Assembly: GCF_009914755.1 (NCBI RefSeq)
Contig: NC_060927.1
Reading direction: 5' to 3' (one strand)
Source: the human T2T-CHM13v2.0 reference genome, Homo sapiens
DNA length: 64,000 nt
Under the pieces are notes generated by a model that saw only the letters and a list, made by a program, of their open reading frames with translations, was not told where the DNA came from and searched no databases. Position numbers and translations under genes: made by a program. Positions 7,829 to 41,885 of the stretch are shown in pieces (within the stretch, counting starts at the first letter, position 1; each line of letters opens with the position of its first letter).

Positions 7829-8257
7829 CTTGGAACCAACCCAAATGTCCAACAATGATAGACTGGATTAAGAAAATGTGGCACATATACACCATGGAAT
7901 ACTATGCAGCCATAAAAAATGATGAGTTCATATCCTTTGTAGGGACATGGATGAAATTGGAAACCATCATTCTCAGTAAACTATCGCAAGAACAAAAAAC
8001 CAAACACCGCATATTCTCACTCATAGGTGGGAATTGAACAATGAGATCACATGGACACAGGAAGGGGAATATCACACTCTGGGGACTGTGGTGGGGTCGG
8101 GGGAGGGGGGAGGGATAGCATTGGGAGATATACCTAATGCTAGATGACACATTAGTGGGTGCAGCACACCAGCATGGCACATGTATACATATGTAACTAA
8201 CCTGCACAATGTGCACATGTACCCTAAAACTTAGAGTATAATAAAAAAAAAAAAAAA
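7829..8257 (+). mobile_element. 5'-truncated L1HS Ta-subfamily insertion with poly(A) tail and TSD AAAAGAAA
   Basis: Diagnostic ACA at 8149-8151 (GATGACACATTAGTGGG) and G at 8234 (AACTTAGAGTATAAT); TSD 7821-7828 and 8258-8265; TTTT/AAAA endonuclease site. Confidence 0.92.
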
Positions 8258-9136
8258 AAAAGAAAGATATGATACATATGAATAAAGGAAATATATTTCT
8301 TTCTTGGTCACATAAAACTCTACATCTCCCTTTTTTGTTTTCTAGCCTGAGTATGCTTACTAATCAATATATCAACTATTTCTTGTTTTTTTTTTTTTTT
8401 TTTTGTAATGAATTGTACACTTTTTATGCTCAGTGTAATAAGAAAGTCACATCAGCAGAGGCGGTGTGACTGAATGAATGAATCACTTAGGTCTTAATCA
8501 AGGAGAAAAGAAAACTGAACACAGAAATAGTGAAGAAATAGTGACTATCCCAAGGTCTCCCAGAAACCACAATGCACAAAGTTCGTTTCCCTTTCAGTAT
8601 TATCTCAGCAGCAGCAATGGTGCCAGTCTCAGAGGGGATGGAAATTTCCTTGTGTCTATTGTTTAAGTTCTTAGAAAGGGTTTATAGGGCTCTACTTTTC
8701 CTCCTGTTTGGAAGACAACTGAATTTACACAAATATAGCCAATTCATTCCAGGTTTAAAAAAACTTGATACAAACTCTTTGGAAGCAAGAAATGCTACTA
8801 TTTTGTTTCAGATCCAAACCTAAAAGTTAAATTGTACATTTGTCCAATTAGTGATAAACTTCACTCACTGAACTCTCTGTAACTTCTCATGTGCCAACAT
8901 TATATTCTGCTAAAAATTAAAGAAGCTATGTCTATTGGAAAACTTTTACGTGCTACTCTTCTGTTCAAAACCATGTAAGTAGTGGCCAGTAAGTTAGAAA
9001 GGATGCTCTTTTCACCTACCTAAGTACTTAATATGTCCGTTTTTGTCCTCCACAGATTTTAATTAATAGAATGTCATTTCACACCCAGGGTGTAGCTTTC
9101 CTAGAACTGGTGAAGAGGCTAAGTGTTTGGAGTTAC

Positions 9137-9323
9137 CTTGAGTGGTGAAGTTGAAGAGTGCAGGTGTGTCTCGCCCATTTGGTAGTTTGACATTTGGGTC
9201 CCGTAATTCATCAAAAAATGAATGTGCACAAGCTTCCAGTGGTGTTAGTCGGGCAGTTGGTGTATACTCCAGCAGACGGCTACACAGTGCAATTGCCTCC
9301 GGTGGAGTTCGGGGTCGGAAGAC
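9137..9323 (-). CDS. GSK3B: GSK3B coding exon, 187 nt: [62 protein letters not shown](E)
   Basis: Translation; polypyrimidine tract plus gcAG acceptor (ct 9324-9325), donor AAG|GTAACT (ac 9135-9136). Confidence 0.98.
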
Positions 9324-11485: not shown

Positions 11486-12306
11486 TATTTCCAGTATTTT
11501 TTTAAGTCACCCATATCTTTTGGTGTTTTACTGCCTACAAGTGATCATCCATATCGGTACTAAGACATTTATTAGCGTATATTTGTCAGGGAATCCTAAC
11601 TCATAAAGTTCAAGAGTTAAAAACAATGAAGAAAATAATACATGTCAAAAGCCTACATTAAAATCAAGATTTAACCTGCCTTTACAAAAACTATACACTG
11701 TCATTTTAAACCCTTGAGAGATTCTTGATGAGAAAAGCCTAGGTTCAGTACTCTGTGAATAAAGGTTAAGTGGAAAATTACGTGGGGTCAAAACCCAGTA
11801 TCTCCCACAGTTCAGATTTCTGACCATAATACAGGGTGAGTTAGCATGTAACTTCTAAAAATTATAGGGCAAACTAGAAACTAGCTCATCTGAATTATTT
11901 TTGCTTCTAAAGAAAAGGAAACCACCAAGAACTGAAATTTGTCTTTTAATTAAAGAAGCTTCCGCTGTCACTTCTTTCCTTACTCACTGAAATTGCTTAA
12001 CACTCAGACCTTTGGTTTCATGGATCTTCATCAATATTTATTCTTGTAATAGAAATAATAATTTTAAAACCCCACAATTCCTAAACTTCAGCCTAGATGT
12101 CAATGAATCACCCAAGAGGCTGACAATCTAAATATACTATAAGTGAAACCTATGCCATACAGTGAATAAAAACAGAAATCACAGCTACTTACATTGTTTA
12201 CTATTACATTTCAAGAATGAGTAATTATTTAGCCTCTCAAAGAAGATTTCCCCCAAGTTTTATAGACCTGCCCTGAAATTTTGGGAAAAAAAAATTAAGT
12301 ACATAC

Positions 12307-12345
12307 CCGCACTCCTGAGGTGAAATGTCCTGTTCCTGACGAATC
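12307..12345 (-). CDS. GSK3B: GSK3B alternative 39-nt cassette exon (exon 8b/9), DSSGTGHFTSGVR, the 13-aa insert of neuronal GSK3beta2
   Basis: GAT TCG TCA GGA ACA GGA CAT TTC ACC TCA GGA GTG CGG between tttAG and GTATGT; phase 0/0; matches the known beta2 insert after K303. Confidence 0.96.
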
Positions 12346-12961
12346 CTAAAGATGATAATGCAGTGAAATAATCCAAACAGGGGAAGTCAATCCAAAAGAG
12401 AATAGTCCAGCAAGGAAAAATATATCCAATGTTATAAGAAATCCATGGTGTGGGGGGGGACATAGAAAATGTTTATACAGTTATAAACTTTAAACATCAG
12501 TCTTCACAGTAGCAAGTCCAAGTTTTAAAAATTATTTCACCACAGTGTATGCAAAAAAATTTTTTTTGATTGTGCAATGGTGAGGCACAGTAAAGAAACA
12601 TTTTAATTTTAGTTTATTATGTTCCAATGCCAGTGCGTTTATTAAAAAAATACAAAACCAAAAAAAGTTAAAATCAAAATGAAATCTAGAAGTAAAGTTC
12701 CCAAAGTAAAATGGTCTTCTATGACCTGGATTCATCATCCACAGACATGGCTGGGAGGGGGCATATTAGCCTGCTTTTAAAGTTTCAAGTTCCCAATATG
12801 CTACTTTTTTCTCTATTAATGTGTTCCAGTTACACAGTATAAACATTTTTTTGCTAAGTTATTAGTGATGAGAGGAAAGTAATAAATATATTTAAGTTAT
12901 ATTACTATAGATTTCAAGCCAGATACTTTCAATTTGTGTGAGCTAAGAAGGATCAGGCCAC

Positions 12962-13092
12962 CGCGGATTATTCTCCATTTTGGATTGACTTCTCTGCTAA
13001 AAGATGTTTCTTTGCTGACATTCTCATTATCTTAGGACTCATCAGGAAATTGACATATCACCTCAGGAGTGCGGGTATTAACTTACTTTTTC
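12962..13092 (+). repeat. Inverted copy of the GSK3B 39-nt exon with its flanking splice-site regions (partner arm about 12287-12411)
   Basis: 13036-13074 matches the exon sense sequence at 33/39 nt; 13058-13078 is a perfect 21-nt reverse complement of 12303-12323; 12978-12992 is a perfect 15-nt reverse complement of 12383-12397. Confidence 0.93.
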
Positions 13093-13765
13093 TATTGTGG
13101 GCTTTGCCCGCTCATACCCTTGCACCCGGTACTTAGGAAAAATAAATAGAGAACATTTTTTCCTCTTTGGAAAAACTCTCTGAAAAAATAAATCCTACAT
13201 CTTCCAGCACTACAAATTAAACACAGTTCCATCTGCAAATATGCCCAATTCACCCACCAAAAGCTAAACAAAATATATAAAATTAACAATACAACTAAGG
13301 GACAGTCACAGTTACAGGTGACAGGCATAGTAATGTATACCAACACCTAGGCACAACGGAGCCAAATATGCAAGGGAGGTAGCAGGGTCTATTATGTCTA
13401 GGTATTGAGAACAAAAAATGGCAGAACTCACCAGTATCTGTGAACTCCCCTGGCTATTCTAAGAGAATTTAACATTCTTTTAGGATAGTTTCCAGTGGGG
13501 GAATTAAATATTTTTCAAAAATAAATAATCCGCGGATTACTTTTAGTCTGCAGACTAAAATTTAGTACACAGATTAAAATCTGGCCCATCAGAATAAATT
13601 CTCTCATGAACTAAAACACAACCAGGTGGACAAAAATAGAAAACCAGACTGAAAGAACTGAGAGCACAAAATAAGACTCAACTGGGCCAACTAACAATTA
13701 GTACGCAGACTAAATATGGCCAGCGAAGTATGCAGCAAGGCCACAGAGATCCCAAAACACCCCTT

Positions 13766-22109: not shown

Positions 22110-22211
<102 letters not shown>

Positions 22212-36281: not shown

Positions 36282-38712
36282 GGCTATAAAAAGAAACATT
36301 TTTAGGGTGATAGAAATGTTCTAAATCTTGACCAGGGTAGTGGTTATATGGGCATGTTTGTTGGAATTTACTAAACTGTCATTTAAAATGCCTATATTTT
36401 ATTACATATAAATTATATTTCTATTAACTTGATTTAAAAAGTAAAAAAAAAAAAAAAAGGGACCATTATGTAATTTGTGTTGCCTTTACTAAATGCAAAC
36501 AGAAGTTTAACCTTCTTAAATTGCTATTTATAAGGCTAGCATTAAAAGTATCAGAATCTGTCAAACCCTAAAATCAGAACTATTTTATATACAATATGCA
36601 TATTTTTTAAGAAAGCAAAGATGAGACATAATCAAGAGGCATTTAAAAAACTTTTCAGCCTCTGAAGTTATTCACATTTCAAAACGTTTACTTAGAGCCT
36701 ATTCCTCAAGAAGCTCTAGGGCAGAGAGACTTGTACGTAAATCAACAACAATCAGGTGACAATAGTATAGCAAAGTAAGTATAGGTAATGTGTGAGGTGA
36801 AAGTGCTACACTGCACTGGAAAGAGGAAGGGATTCAGGAAAGGTTCTGGAAGGGGAGTCAAGAGCTGATTTTACTTAAGGAATGTAGCAGGCAAATGAGT
36901 AAAAAGTACATTCTATGCACACTAGATGTGTAGGTGAAAAACAGCATTCTAAAAGAGAATAAGGACTGGATTATAGATGGATGATATAATTAAAGGCTAA
37001 AAGGTAAGCAAGTGATAGATATGAAGAGCAAAGATTCAGAACGCATGACTATCTTTAACACCACAAACATAAGACATTTTAACAACTATCCTATTTCAAC
37101 CTCTGAGTATATCTTTAGGTTTTATATTAAGTTTTTATTAGGTTCAGAGTATATTTCTACCTGATTTACTCCAGCTGAATTCTACATTTGGAACTTTTGA
37201 AACAGAATAATTGAATAATTTTATAGATAAAAAAGATGTTTGACAAATTATCATTTCATACACAAAACAAGTCTTAGGGTTCACTTGAATTTTAAGAGAT
37301 GGAAATTTTTTTTCCTCCAAAACGTTTAGACTAAAGACATATATTTTGAGTAATTAATACTTATTCCTGGATTTCCTGAAAACTGAGTCCTTTTTTGACT
37401 TAAAGGAAATTAAACTAGATGGAAATGCTTTATGCACTCTTCTGTAAGTGTATTTCATACAAAAGAGGGGGGAATTTTAAAAATTATCACACCAATGGGA
37501 AGGGAACATATTCTCAGTTATCTATTACTAGAACTCATGATCTTTTCATTTGTTGCAAAAAGCATCAAGATCAGCCTGCCCCACCCCTTTGGGGATGTTG
37601 TTCATCCCCTTACTATTAAATCAATCAATTTATCTGTTCCTGGCCCTACCTAGTTAGAAATTTATCCAAACACTGAAAAATATCAACACAGGAATTATGA
37701 GTTGATAATTACTGTCTTCAAAGAAGTACTACGGCCCAAGAAGCACCTCACAAAAAGCAACTGACAAGCTCTGAAACGCTAGTATTTCTTCCACAACGTT
37801 GTTTATTTTATAGTTCAACACCAGAGGTCGCCAAACTTCAGCAATAGAGGTGCATGTGTAGCCTTTAAGAGCGAAGTAAAAGAAAACCTATTAGAAATGT
37901 CGCTACTCCGCTTAAAATCCTGCAATTGCTTCCAACTGCTTACAAGCTAATGTGATCTGGCCACTGTCAACAGCTCCAGTCTTCTCCTTCCTGGTAAACT
38001 CATATTCTATCAACCCCACCAGGCAGAACCTTAAGCGACAACCATAAAGAAACACACCAAACCTAGTTTTACTAAATATTTATCCACTCCCTTCCGCTCC
38101 CTATCTGGTAAATACTTTTTCATGTTTCAATATTCAGCTCAATGGTTAGCTCTCCTAAGAAGGCTTTCCAGACAGCACTACTCTGAGTGAAATGCTTCTG
38201 CCTTTGTATTCTGCTCAGACATCTGGAATAATACTGGGCTTGCCCTATTGCCCTCAGTTCCTCTCCTCCCATCCATCAGTCTCTGAAGCCCCTGAAGGCA
38301 AGAAACCTCTAAGTTCTTGCCCAGCACCTAGTAAAAACTGTTCACTAAATTAACGCATGTAGTTAATGTGGTATGCACCTTGAAAGACTAAAGGGATGTA
38401 TGGCTAGGCTTATAGATAATGAATTCAATAAAGGTTTTAAAAATGAAATTATATAACACAACATAATCATTGTATAAATGGTTGAATACCTAAACATCTT
38501 CATTTATTTTCTGCATATGGAATTTGGAGTGTTGGGTTGTGTTAGATTGGCTGCTATATCCTCAAAAGGACAAATTTTTCTAAATAGAAAACATGTATTC
38601 TGTTTCAAAATATCAGTCTAATGACAATAGAATCACTATCATTTTCACTTATAGAGGACTGATATGAAATGTCATCTCCTCTGGCATTTTCCTACAATTT
38701 ACAGATTTTACT

Positions 38713-38995
38713 ATTTATTTTTTGAGACAGAGTCTTGCTCTGTCAGCCTGGTTGGTGTGCGGTGGTGCAATCTTGGCTCACTGCAACCTCTACCTCCCAG
38801 GTTCAAGTGATTCTTGTGCCTCAGCCTCCTGAGTAGCTGGGATTACAGGTGTGCTCCACCACACCCAGCTAATTTTTATATTTTTAATAGAGATGAAGCT
38901 TCCTCCTGTTGGTCTTGAGCTCCTGGCCTCAAGTGATCCACCCATCTCAGCCTCCCAAAGTGCTAGGATTTACTGCATGAACCACCGCACCCAGC
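38713..38995 (-). mobile_element. Alu (old S/J type)
   Basis: TTTTGAGACAGAGTCTTGCTCTGTC...CTCCTGGCCTCAAGTGATCC...CCGCACCCAGC. Confidence 0.9.

Positions 38996-39584: not shown

Positions 39585-41885
<2,301 letters not shown>

What the first reader, a model, noticed from the sequence alone, without database searches (positions are those of the whole stretch)
12287..13092. Intronic antisense copy of the neuronal GSK3beta2 exon that could zip up the exon and both splice sites
Seen: the + strand at 13031-13092 reads cttag|GACTCATCAGGAAATTGACATATCACCTCAGGAGTGCGG|gtattaacttacttttt. The real exon on the - strand reads tttag|GATTCGTCAGGAACAGGACATTTCACCTCAGGAGTGCGG|gtatgtacttaattttt. That is 33/39 identity with no indels, and a perfect 21-bp run (12303-12323 with 13058-13078) crosses the 5' splice site and retains a CpG. 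A second block (12383-12408 with 12965-12992, 15 bp perfect) covers the upstream pyrimidine/branch-point region. In the GSK3B pre-mRNA this segment is complementary to the exon and is transcribed about 700 nt before it. Both transition differences in the exon (T/C at position 3, G/A at position 6) give G-U wobbles on the GSK3B sense strand but A-C mismatches on the other strand. Known: this cassette exon defines neuron-enriched GSK3beta2, and long-range duplexes can mask splice sites. Inference: a cis 'anti-exon' keeps the exon skipped by default and is opened or remodelled in neurons. I do not recall this element being described, but cannot check the literature.
Basis: partly seen in the sequence, partly recalled or inferred. 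Interest (0 to 1): 0.92.

Follow-up and report, generated by a model that had tools for sequence, protein, structure and literature searches.

The report
Inverted intronic copy of GSK3B neuronal exon
About 700 bases upstream of the small neuron-enriched exon of the human GSK3B gene lies a single-copy, back-to-front duplicate of that exon and its splice signals, which should fold onto the exon in the RNA and hide it from the splicing machinery, giving a plausible and easily tested but still unproven reason why most tissues skip this exon.

Summary
Window 12290-12408 holds the 39-nt GSK3B cassette exon 12307-12345 on the minus strand, with both splice sites and the candidate branch-point region. 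Window 12965-13091 is an inverted duplicate of it: 51/60 complementary without gaps in the core, with gapped homology over about 120-127 nt. Both arms and the 556-nt spacer are unique in the human genome, so this is not a transposon. On the pre-mRNA strand the arms form 106 base pairs in the best fold (z = -10.8). The exon, the 3' splice-site AG, the first four bases of the 5' splice site and a candidate branch point are all paired, also in 1.6 kb of context. Shuffling the copy frees them. Function is not shown. The sequence-internal hints of selection are weak (P = 0.25 and 0.14). Divergence fits a neutral copy as well as a constrained one. No orthologous introns, crosslinking or editing data could be reached. 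Ten literature searches found no description. The main catalogue of conserved pairings excludes exons by design. One published ultra-edited EST overlapping GSK3B coding sequence is an unresolved lead. Verdict: a real, probably repressive exon-masking hairpin, and a new member of a known kind.

The parts
12307..12345 (-). GSK3B alternative 39-nt cassette exon (called exon 9 or 8b), encoding DSSGTGHFTSGVR; defines the GSK3beta2 isoform
   Evidence: Hub annotation (exon of other transcripts 12307-12345); translation; literature passages.
12287..12408 (-). Exon arm of the duplex. In order of transcription: branch-point-region block 12408-12381, polypyrimidine tract and 3' splice site 12380-12346, exon, 5' splice site and downstream flank 12306-12287
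   Evidence: Fourteen helices, 106 inter-arm pairs in the best fold. The 3' splice-site AG (12347-12346), the UGC at 12362-12360, UCUCUUUU at 12401-12394 and GUAU of the 5' splice site have P(unpaired) of 0.18 or less.
12965..13093 (-). Anti-exon arm: inverted duplicate of the exon arm. On the + strand it reads like the exon with AG and GT flanks; on the pre-mRNA (-) strand it is complementary to the exon arm and is transcribed first
   Evidence: The + strand reading frame has a stop (DSSGN*HITSGVR).
12409..12964 (-). 556-nt spacer that becomes the loop of the hairpin; single copy in the genome; no clear inverted homology inside it
   Evidence: only a self match; best inner inverted local alignment scores 27, and 6 of 200 shuffles reach it.
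12303..12323 (-). Exon-arm side of the perfect 21-bp helix (partner 13058-13078), covering the last 17 nt of the exon and GUAU of the 5' splice site
   Evidence: helix length 21, lowest pair probability 0.96.
12333..12350 (-). Exon-arm side of an 18-bp helix (partner 13031-13048, 3 G-U pairs) covering the 3' splice-site AG and the first 13 nt of the exon
12383..12397 (-). Exon-arm side of the perfect 15-nt complementary block (partner 12978-12992); contains UUGAC, a candidate branch point (A at 12387)
   Evidence: I2. (yUnAy match at 12390). P(paired to the anti arm) 1.00, and P(unpaired) 0.97 when the anti arm is shuffled.

Best explanation
An old, local, single-copy inverted duplication placed a copy of about 120-127 nt in reverse orientation 556 nt upstream in the same intron. 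The copied unit was the GSK3B 39-nt exon together with its 5' splice site, 3' splice site, polypyrimidine tract and candidate branch-point region. In the pre-mRNA the copy is transcribed first. As the exon arm emerges, the loop-proximal block (12381-12408 with 12965-12994) can nucleate pairing. The helix can then zip outward over the 3' splice site, the whole exon and the 5' splice site, giving about 106 base pairs. While this hairpin is closed, U2AF, U2 and U1 cannot reach their sites, so the exon is skipped. This contributes to the low default inclusion of the GSK3beta2 exon. Shown: the sequence anatomy, its uniqueness in the genome and its thermodynamic dominance in silico. Inferred: that it forms in cells, that it lowers inclusion, and that some neuronal condition relieves it.
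For: Inverted homology over about 120-127 nt with sharp ends. Only two copies in the 3.1-Gb genome and a unique spacer. The best fold of 841 nt pairs the arms: -249 kcal/mol against -174 +/- 6.9 for 20 shuffles, z = -10.8, with 0 of 20 shuffles as good. The core duplex is -84.9 kcal/mol on the sense strand and -74.7 on the antisense strand; the extended duplex is -139.6. In both 841-nt and 1601-nt contexts the mean probability of pairing with the anti arm is 0.89 for the exon, 0.78 for the 5' splice site, 0.80 for the 3' splice site with its pyrimidine tract, and 1.00 for the UUGAC block. In 3 of 3 shuffles of the anti arm the fold loses about 60 kcal/mol, and P(unpaired) rises to 0.97 (UUGAC), 0.63-0.64 (3' splice site region) and about 0.5 (5' splice site). 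The only alternative exon among the 6 in the window is the only one with such a copy. Kalmykova et al. 2021 report that conserved pairings are enriched at inactive splice sites and depleted at active ones (PMC8052449 passages). Established knowledge, recalled: splice sites held in stable helices are used poorly, and inverted repeats of this size and spacing form dsRNA in human nuclei, as editing of inverted Alu pairs shows.
Against: There is no evidence here that the duplex forms in vivo or affects splicing. Internal signs of selection are weak: G-U asymmetry 2 of 2 (chance 0.25), and longest run P = 0.14. Divergence is K 0.17 in the exon, 0.16 plus 12 gap columns in the 3' flank and 0.20 in the 5' flank, which fits a neutrally drifting copy. 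The loop is 556 nt. Before the exon arm is made, 76-79 of the 137 anti-arm bases are predicted to be paired locally, at a cost of 36-37 kcal/mol to free them, so kinetics may limit closure. DDX5/17 knock-down in MCF-7 and LNCaP cells raises inclusion, the opposite of what a helicase that opens the hairpin would give (PMC3936752 passages). U2AF65 depletion also raises inclusion, so other repressive routes exist (PMC4797308 passage). No opener in neurons was identified: GCAUG occurs 0 times in 11700-13700.
Confidence: 0.5

Rival explanations
1. Neutral relic. The inverted duplication is real, but the copy has drifted without constraint. In cells, bound proteins, co-transcriptional splicing and the 556-nt loop keep the duplex from forming often enough to matter. 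Exon skipping is set by other elements, such as the weak 3' splice-site region, a PTB-type pyrimidine tract and U2AF-dependent competition.
For: Equal divergence in the exon and flanks (K 0.16-0.20), many gaps in the 12350-12380 segment, and one of the two exon CpGs lost in the copy. Run length and G-U asymmetry are not significant. A local trap of the anti arm is predicted. U2AF65 and DDX5/17 depletions change inclusion without any reference to the hairpin. Recalled: early in vivo work found that hairpins with long loops were much less effective than in vitro.
Against: A duplex of -85 to -140 kcal/mol with a 21-bp perfect run remains today. Inverted repeats of similar size and spacing do pair in human nuclei (recalled, from Alu editing). 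Conserved pairings are enriched at inactive splice sites.
Confidence: 0.3
2. ADAR substrate. The copy acts mainly as an editing-site complementary sequence. The dsRNA recruits ADAR, and the consequence is A-to-I editing or ADAR binding, for instance at the 3' splice-site adenosine, which sits in a UAG triplet inside an 18-bp helix. Editing there would turn AG into IG and abolish the site. This does not exclude the masking model.
For: The architecture (an exon paired with an intronic inverted copy, helices of 18 and 21 bp) is that of known ECS hairpins. Carmi et al. 2011 list EST DW412140 in GSK3B as one of only 2 of 760 ultra-edited ESTs that overlap coding sequence (PMC3197674 passages). The anti arm has 23 paired adenosines with a 5' U or A, while the exon has 1 of 9. 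That would fit heavy editing outside the coding part.
Against: The position of DW412140 within GSK3B is not given in the main text, and the supplements were closed. The same paper says only the OLR1 EST had edited sites in coding sequence. GSK3B is not mentioned in the main text of a survey of human recoding sites (PMC8897444). The goat study lists GSK3B editing sites without positions.
Confidence: 0.12
3. The two arms are terminal inverted repeats of an old transposon, a chance match, or an exon of an antisense transcript on the + strand.
For: The + strand copy keeps AG and GT at its ends.
Against: The arms and spacer have no other copy in the genome. The match has E about 2e-11 genome-wide and 2.5e-15 in the window. 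The homology covers exactly the exon and its splice signals. The hub table lists no + strand gene here, and the + strand frame carries a stop.
Confidence: 0.03

Closest known systems
Repression of chicken beta-tropomyosin exon 6B by a secondary structure with the upstream intron (recalled from the literature, not read here)
   Same: A tissue-specific cassette exon and its splice signals are held in a helix with upstream intronic sequence, giving default skipping outside the tissue that uses it.
   Different: Here the complementary segment is a recognisable inverted duplicate of the exon itself. It is longer (about 106 pairs), has a 556-nt loop, and has not been tested.
[quoted passage not shown]
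   Same: Long-range intramolecular pairing in a human pre-mRNA within 10 kb, overlapping splice signals; such pairings are associated with inactive splice sites.
   Different: The PCCR catalogue was built from intronic regions only, reaching 10 nt into exons. An arm that contains the whole exon is outside its design. Conservation of this pair is unknown.
ADAR editing-site complementary sequences, e.g. GluR-B Q/R and R/G sites (PMC1920255 abstract in the listing)
   Same: An exon pairs with an imperfect inverted intronic copy, and the helix spans a splice site, so structure and splicing are coupled.
   Different: No edited site in this exon is documented in what was read. The copy lies upstream, not downstream. 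The pairing covers both splice sites and the branch-point region.
Inverted intronic Alu pairs that influence alternative splicing (PMC2533698 abstract in the listing)
   Same: Inverted repeats in introns form dsRNA and shift exon inclusion.
   Different: Alu pairs flank exons and are multi-copy transposons. Here one arm is the exon and both arms are single copy.
Intronic structures with concealed branch sites (PMC11162794 abstract in the listing), and the MAPT exon 10 5' splice-site stem-loop modulated by DDX5 (cited as reference 14 in PMC3936752)
   Same: Masking of a branch site or a 5' splice site by pairing; involvement of a helicase.
   Different: Those are local stems hiding one signal. 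This hairpin hides all signals of the exon at once. DDX5/17 depletion acts here in the direction opposite to simple unwinding.

Membership tests
Long-range pre-mRNA duplex that masks an alternative exon | Two complementary segments in the same primary transcript, on the transcribed strand | tested here: met
   Both arms lie in GSK3B on the - strand between exons at 22116-22211 and 9137-9323 (hub table).
Long-range pre-mRNA duplex that masks an alternative exon | Stability well above composition-matched controls, and dominance in the ensemble | tested here: met
   z = -10.8 with 0 of 20 shuffles as good. Pair probabilities are 0.78-1.00 in 841-nt and 1601-nt contexts, and are lost in 3 of 3 anti-arm shuffles.
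Long-range pre-mRNA duplex that masks an alternative exon | Pairing covers the splice signals | tested here: met
   The 3' splice-site AG, GUAU of the 5' splice site, the pyrimidine tract and the UUGAC candidate branch point are paired.
Long-range pre-mRNA duplex that masks an alternative exon | Conservation and compensatory changes across species | not testable with these tools
   No vertebrate genomes other than the window's own are held. Within-sequence proxies were inconclusive.
Long-range pre-mRNA duplex that masks an alternative exon | Duplex detected in cells (crosslinking, proximity ligation, probing or editing) | not testable with these tools
   Only an unresolved lead: ultra-edited EST DW412140 overlaps GSK3B coding sequence.
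Long-range pre-mRNA duplex that masks an alternative exon | Disruption changes inclusion and compensatory mutation restores it | not testable with these tools
   This is a bench experiment. None was found in 10 literature searches.
ADAR editing-site complementary sequence hairpin | Imperfect dsRNA between an exon and an intronic inverted copy | tested here: met
ADAR editing-site complementary sequence hairpin | A documented A-to-I site in the paired exon | tested here: inconclusive
   None was found in the main texts read.
Transposon-derived inverted repeat (terminal inverted repeats or inverted Alu-type pair) | Further copies dispersed in the genome | tested here: not met
   The arms match only each other and the spacer matches only itself. 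The search can miss very old, diverged families.
Published PCCR catalogue entry | Both arms within conserved intronic regions and listed in the catalogue | tested here: inconclusive
   GSK3B is absent from the main text and from the 3 supplementary files held. The full catalogue is a browser track that is not held. Exons were excluded by design.

The most novel reading that the evidence does not exclude
The copy is a conserved, selected 'anti-exon': an exon-derived, built-in antisense element that keeps the GSK3beta2 exon shut by zipping co-transcriptionally over its branch point, both splice sites and the exon body. It is relieved in neurons by a factor that binds or remodels one arm, or by editing. 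It would then be the first recognised example of a class (inverted exon duplicates acting as cis antisense silencers) that existing catalogues of conserved pairings cannot contain, because they exclude exons.
Probability: 0.2. Interest if true: 0.8.

Novelty: new member of a known kind. Interest (0 to 1): 0.55.

Why it matters
GSK3B is a central kinase in Wnt, insulin and tau biology. [quoted passage not shown] None of the papers read here says what keeps the exon out in most tissues. A single, well-delimited intronic element that masks the whole exon would offer a concrete handle. An oligonucleotide against the copy does not touch the mRNA, so it could raise GSK3beta2 without altering total GSK3B. 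More generally, it points to inverted exon duplicates as a source of splicing silencers, which the intron-only PCCR screen read here would miss.

Tried and rejected
(1) Transposon origin: rejected. Three whole-genome searches with the anti arm, the exon arm and the spacer found only the locus itself.

(2) A large degenerate palindrome spanning the whole 800 nt: not supported. The inner 556 nt give a best inverted local score of 27, and 6 of 200 shuffles reach it. Identity drops to about 45% just outside both ends of the arms.

(3) Known RNA family: none. Rfam gave 2 sub-threshold hits at E 0.31 and 0.92, neither on the arms.

(4) Tests of selection from the human sequence alone (G-U asymmetry, run length, CpG retention, divergence by compartment): all inconclusive.

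(5) Neuronal activator motifs: GCAUG occurs 0 times in 11700-13700. YCAY, UGC and UCUU-type motifs are present but not distinctive.

(7) Supplementary files: one look-up worked, and GSK3B was absent from the 3 held files of PMC8052449. The RIC-seq tables of PMC10573301 and the EST table of PMC3197674 were therefore not seen, and both may bear on whether the duplex forms in vivo.

(8) Locating the remaining GSK3B coding exons outside the window, to weigh where EST DW412140 might lie, was considered and dropped as costly and indirect.

(9) Orthologous introns: no tool here holds vertebrate genomes other than the window's own.

Full report
**1. The observation**

The window is part of human GSK3B, which is transcribed from the minus strand (hub table).

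- One search shows the minus-strand exon 12345->12307. It is flanked by ...ucuuuag and guaugu..., and it translates to DSSGTGHFTSGVR.
- The repeat finder reports the pair 12290-12349 / 13032-13091 (60 nt, 85% complementary, 682 nt between the arms). It also reports a perfect 15-nt pair 12383-12397 / 12978-12992.
- A gapped local alignment joins these into one inverted homology from 12290-12408 to 13091-12965.
- Exon against copy is 33 of 39 identical without gaps.
- The perfect run is 21 bp (12303-12323 with 13058-13078).
- Both transitions give G-U on the sense strand and A-C on the other strand.

**2. More than chance, and not a repeat family**

- Whole-genome searches of the window's own assembly with the anti arm, the exon arm and the spacer return only the locus itself. 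The arms hit each other at E about 2e-11, and the spacer hits only itself. The tool warns that it can miss common or very old families.
- Across the 64-kb window, the repeat finder lists 6 inverted pairs of 35 nt or more within 3 kb. One is this pair, three form a cluster at 38.7/41.6 kb and two belong to a poly-A/T pair at 8.2 kb.
- Of the six GSK3B exons in the window (each with 60-nt flanks), only the alternative one has a second match below E = 1e-10 (2.5e-15). The next best is a 33-nt low-complexity flank match of exon 6 at 7.7e-5.
- Homology ends sharply. The 32 nt beyond either end align at about 45%. The inner 556 nt show no convincing inverted homology: score 27, reached by 6 of 200 shuffles.

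So a unit of roughly 120-127 nt was duplicated in inverted orientation 556 nt away. The unit held the exon, 17 nt or more of the downstream intron and about 63 nt of the upstream intron.

**3. Structure on the pre-mRNA strand**

- Folding 12270-13110 (-) gives -249 kcal/mol, against -174 +/- 6.9 for 20 dinucleotide shuffles. That is z = -10.8, and none of the 20 shuffles is as good. The best fold and the centroid both close the two arms.
- The best fold has 14 inter-arm helices with 106 pairs. They include an 18-bp helix over the 3' splice-site AG and the first 13 exon bases, the 21-bp perfect helix over the last 17 exon bases plus GUAU of the 5' splice site, and 14-bp and 8-bp helices over UUUGGAUUGACUUC and UAUUCUCU upstream.
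- The core duplex is -84.9 kcal/mol on the sense strand and -74.7 on the antisense strand. The extended duplex is -139.6 against -135.4.
- Partition-function results are the same in 841-nt and 1601-nt contexts.

| Region | Mean P(paired to anti arm) |
|---|---|
| Exon | 0.89 |
| 5' splice site | 0.78 |
| 3' splice site with pyrimidine tract | 0.80 |
| UUGAC candidate branch point | 1.00 |

- In 3 of 3 random shuffles of the anti arm the fold loses about 60 kcal/mol. P(unpaired) rises to 0.97 for UUGAC, 0.63-0.64 for the 3' splice-site region and about 0.5 for the 5' splice site.
- The first AG upstream of the 3' splice site lies 142 nt away, so the branch point may sit anywhere in that zone, and the arm covers much of it.
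- Before the exon arm is transcribed, 76-79 of the 137 anti-arm bases are predicted to pair locally with upstream sequence. Freeing them costs 36-37 kcal/mol. The long duplex is still far more favourable, but a kinetic barrier is possible.

**4. Selection or relic?**

The human sequence alone does not decide.

- Two of two transitions being G-U on the sense strand has a chance of 0.25.
- A perfect run of 21 or more, given 9 mismatches placed at random in 60 positions, has P = 0.14.
- Jukes-Cantor divergence is 0.17 in the exon, 0.16 in the 3' splice-site flank (with 12 gap columns concentrated in 12350-12380) and 0.20 in the 17-nt 5' splice-site flank.

This fits a neutrally drifting copy of a constrained exon arm. 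It equally fits an older, constrained copy.

The exon is reported in human, rodents and pig (PMC3936752 passages; PMC3391277 passages), so the exon arm has been an exon since at least the boreoeutherian ancestor. By my recalled estimate of the human-lineage neutral distance (about 0.13-0.18 substitutions per site since that ancestor), a neutral copy with K of about 0.17 would be of similar age. This dating is an inference, not a measurement. No tool here holds orthologous vertebrate introns, so conservation and covariation remain untested.

**5. What the literature adds**

Ten full-text searches returned no paper describing this element. The library holds open-access papers and preprints only.

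- GSK3B is absent from the main texts of the PCCR paper, the RIC-seq paper, the PeerJ 2023 paper and IRBIS (term look-ups). It is also absent from the 3 held supplementary files of the PCCR paper.
[quoted passage not shown] It cannot contain the exon-bearing core of this duplex.
- The same paper reports that conserved pairings are depleted at active splice sites, enriched at inactive ones, and enriched in A-to-I sites, more so for stable structures (passages).
- DDX5/17 knock-down raises exon 9 inclusion in MCF-7 and LNCaP cells (passages). This shows that skipping depends on RNA helicases, but the direction is opposite to a helicase that opens the hairpin. It would fit only if these proteins help the long duplex to form, for instance by resolving the local trap of the anti arm. 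That is speculation.
- U2AF65 depletion also raises inclusion (passage).
- Carmi et al. 2011 state that 2 of 760 ultra-edited ESTs overlap coding sequence, one being DW412140 in GSK3B. They also state that only the OLR1 EST had edited sites inside coding sequence (passages). Ultra-editing needs a long dsRNA. The exon's paired adenosines have poor ADAR contexts (1 of 9 with a 5' A, none with a 5' U), whereas the anti arm has 23 with a 5' U or A (the ADAR neighbour preference is recalled). The EST could therefore come from this hairpin. I rate this a coin-flip lead, not evidence.
- The DZF-protein preprint (passages) and a recoding survey (look-up) do not mention GSK3B in their main texts.
- The goat study names GSK3B among edited genes without positions.

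**6. Mechanism proposed**

The anti arm is made first. When the exon arm emerges, its first-transcribed part (12408-12381) meets its partner at the loop-proximal end of the anti arm and can nucleate. The helix then extends outward as the pyrimidine tract, the AG, the exon and the GU emerge, in competition with U2AF, U2 and U1. Closed molecules skip the exon.

The anatomy and the thermodynamics are shown. Formation in cells, the effect on inclusion and any neuronal relief are inferred. I put 0.5 on the core claim that the duplex forms in cells and lowers inclusion. I put about 0.2 on the stronger reading of a selected, regulated switch.

Rivals, with the evidence and refuting results given in their sections:
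- a neutral relic without effect (0.3);
- an ADAR-centred role, which is not exclusive (0.12);
- transposon, chance or antisense exon (0.03).

**7. Comparison and novelty**

It works like classical structure-mediated exon repression (beta-tropomyosin exon 6B, recalled) and like PCCR-type long-range pairings. Its architecture is that of ADAR ECS hairpins. Membership in the functional class lacks the three defining tests that need other data: conservation, in vivo duplex and mutational effect. Membership in the transposon class failed.

It is best called a new, untested member of a known kind. Its unusual feature is that the masking element is an inverted duplicate of the entire exon unit.

Interest is 0.55. 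The object is striking and cleanly testable in an important gene, but its function is unproven and the mechanism class is known.

Noticed in passing
window 13081-13086 (- strand): On the pre-mRNA strand the anti arm contains AAAAA|GUAAGU, a perfect U1-type 5' splice-site hexamer. It is the complement of the region just downstream of the real 5' splice site. U1 binding there could compete with closure of the hairpin. Not examined further.
   Followed up: no
window 12346-12489 (- strand): The AG-exclusion zone upstream of the exon's 3' splice site is 142 nt long, which suggests a possibly distant branch point. The exon arm covers the proximal 63 nt of it.
   Followed up: partly
window 12360-12362 and 12394-12401 (- strand): A UGC lies 15-17 nt upstream of the 3' splice site; I recall this as the nSR100/SRRM4-type position. 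A UCUCUUUU tract (PTB-type, recalled) also lies in the exon arm. Both are predicted to be fully paired in the hairpin, so their binding and the duplex would exclude each other.
   Followed up: partly
window 12346-12348 (- strand): The adenosine of the 3' splice-site AG sits in a UAG triplet (the ADAR-preferred context, recalled) inside an 18-bp helix. Editing there would destroy the splice site. No editing data were available.
   Followed up: no
window 12452-12459: A run of eight G on the + strand, i.e. C8 on the pre-mRNA, lies about 110 nt upstream of the exon. PMC4797308 reports that alphaCP1/2 co-depletion left the four U2AF65-dependent control exons, which include GSK3B exon 9, unaffected or only slightly changed.
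   Followed up: no
window 38706-38995 and 41523-41843: There are three overlapping inverted-repeat pairs of 65-180 nt at 72-80% complementarity, 2.5-2.8 kb apart, in a GSK3B intron. They partly coincide with stretches masked as repeats (41535-41751), so this is probably an inverted transposon pair able to form dsRNA.
   Followed up: no
window 8237-8407: A poly-A / poly-T inverted pair (36-41 nt arms, 89 nt apart) lies about 730 nt from the exon at 9137-9323. It is low complexity.
   Followed up: no
window 13441-13565 (+) and 11828-11896 (-): Sub-threshold Rfam matches: SNORA27 at 22.7 bits against a gathering score of 64 (E 0.31), and mir-84 at 17.4 bits against 60 (E 0.92). Both are most likely chance.
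   Followed up: no
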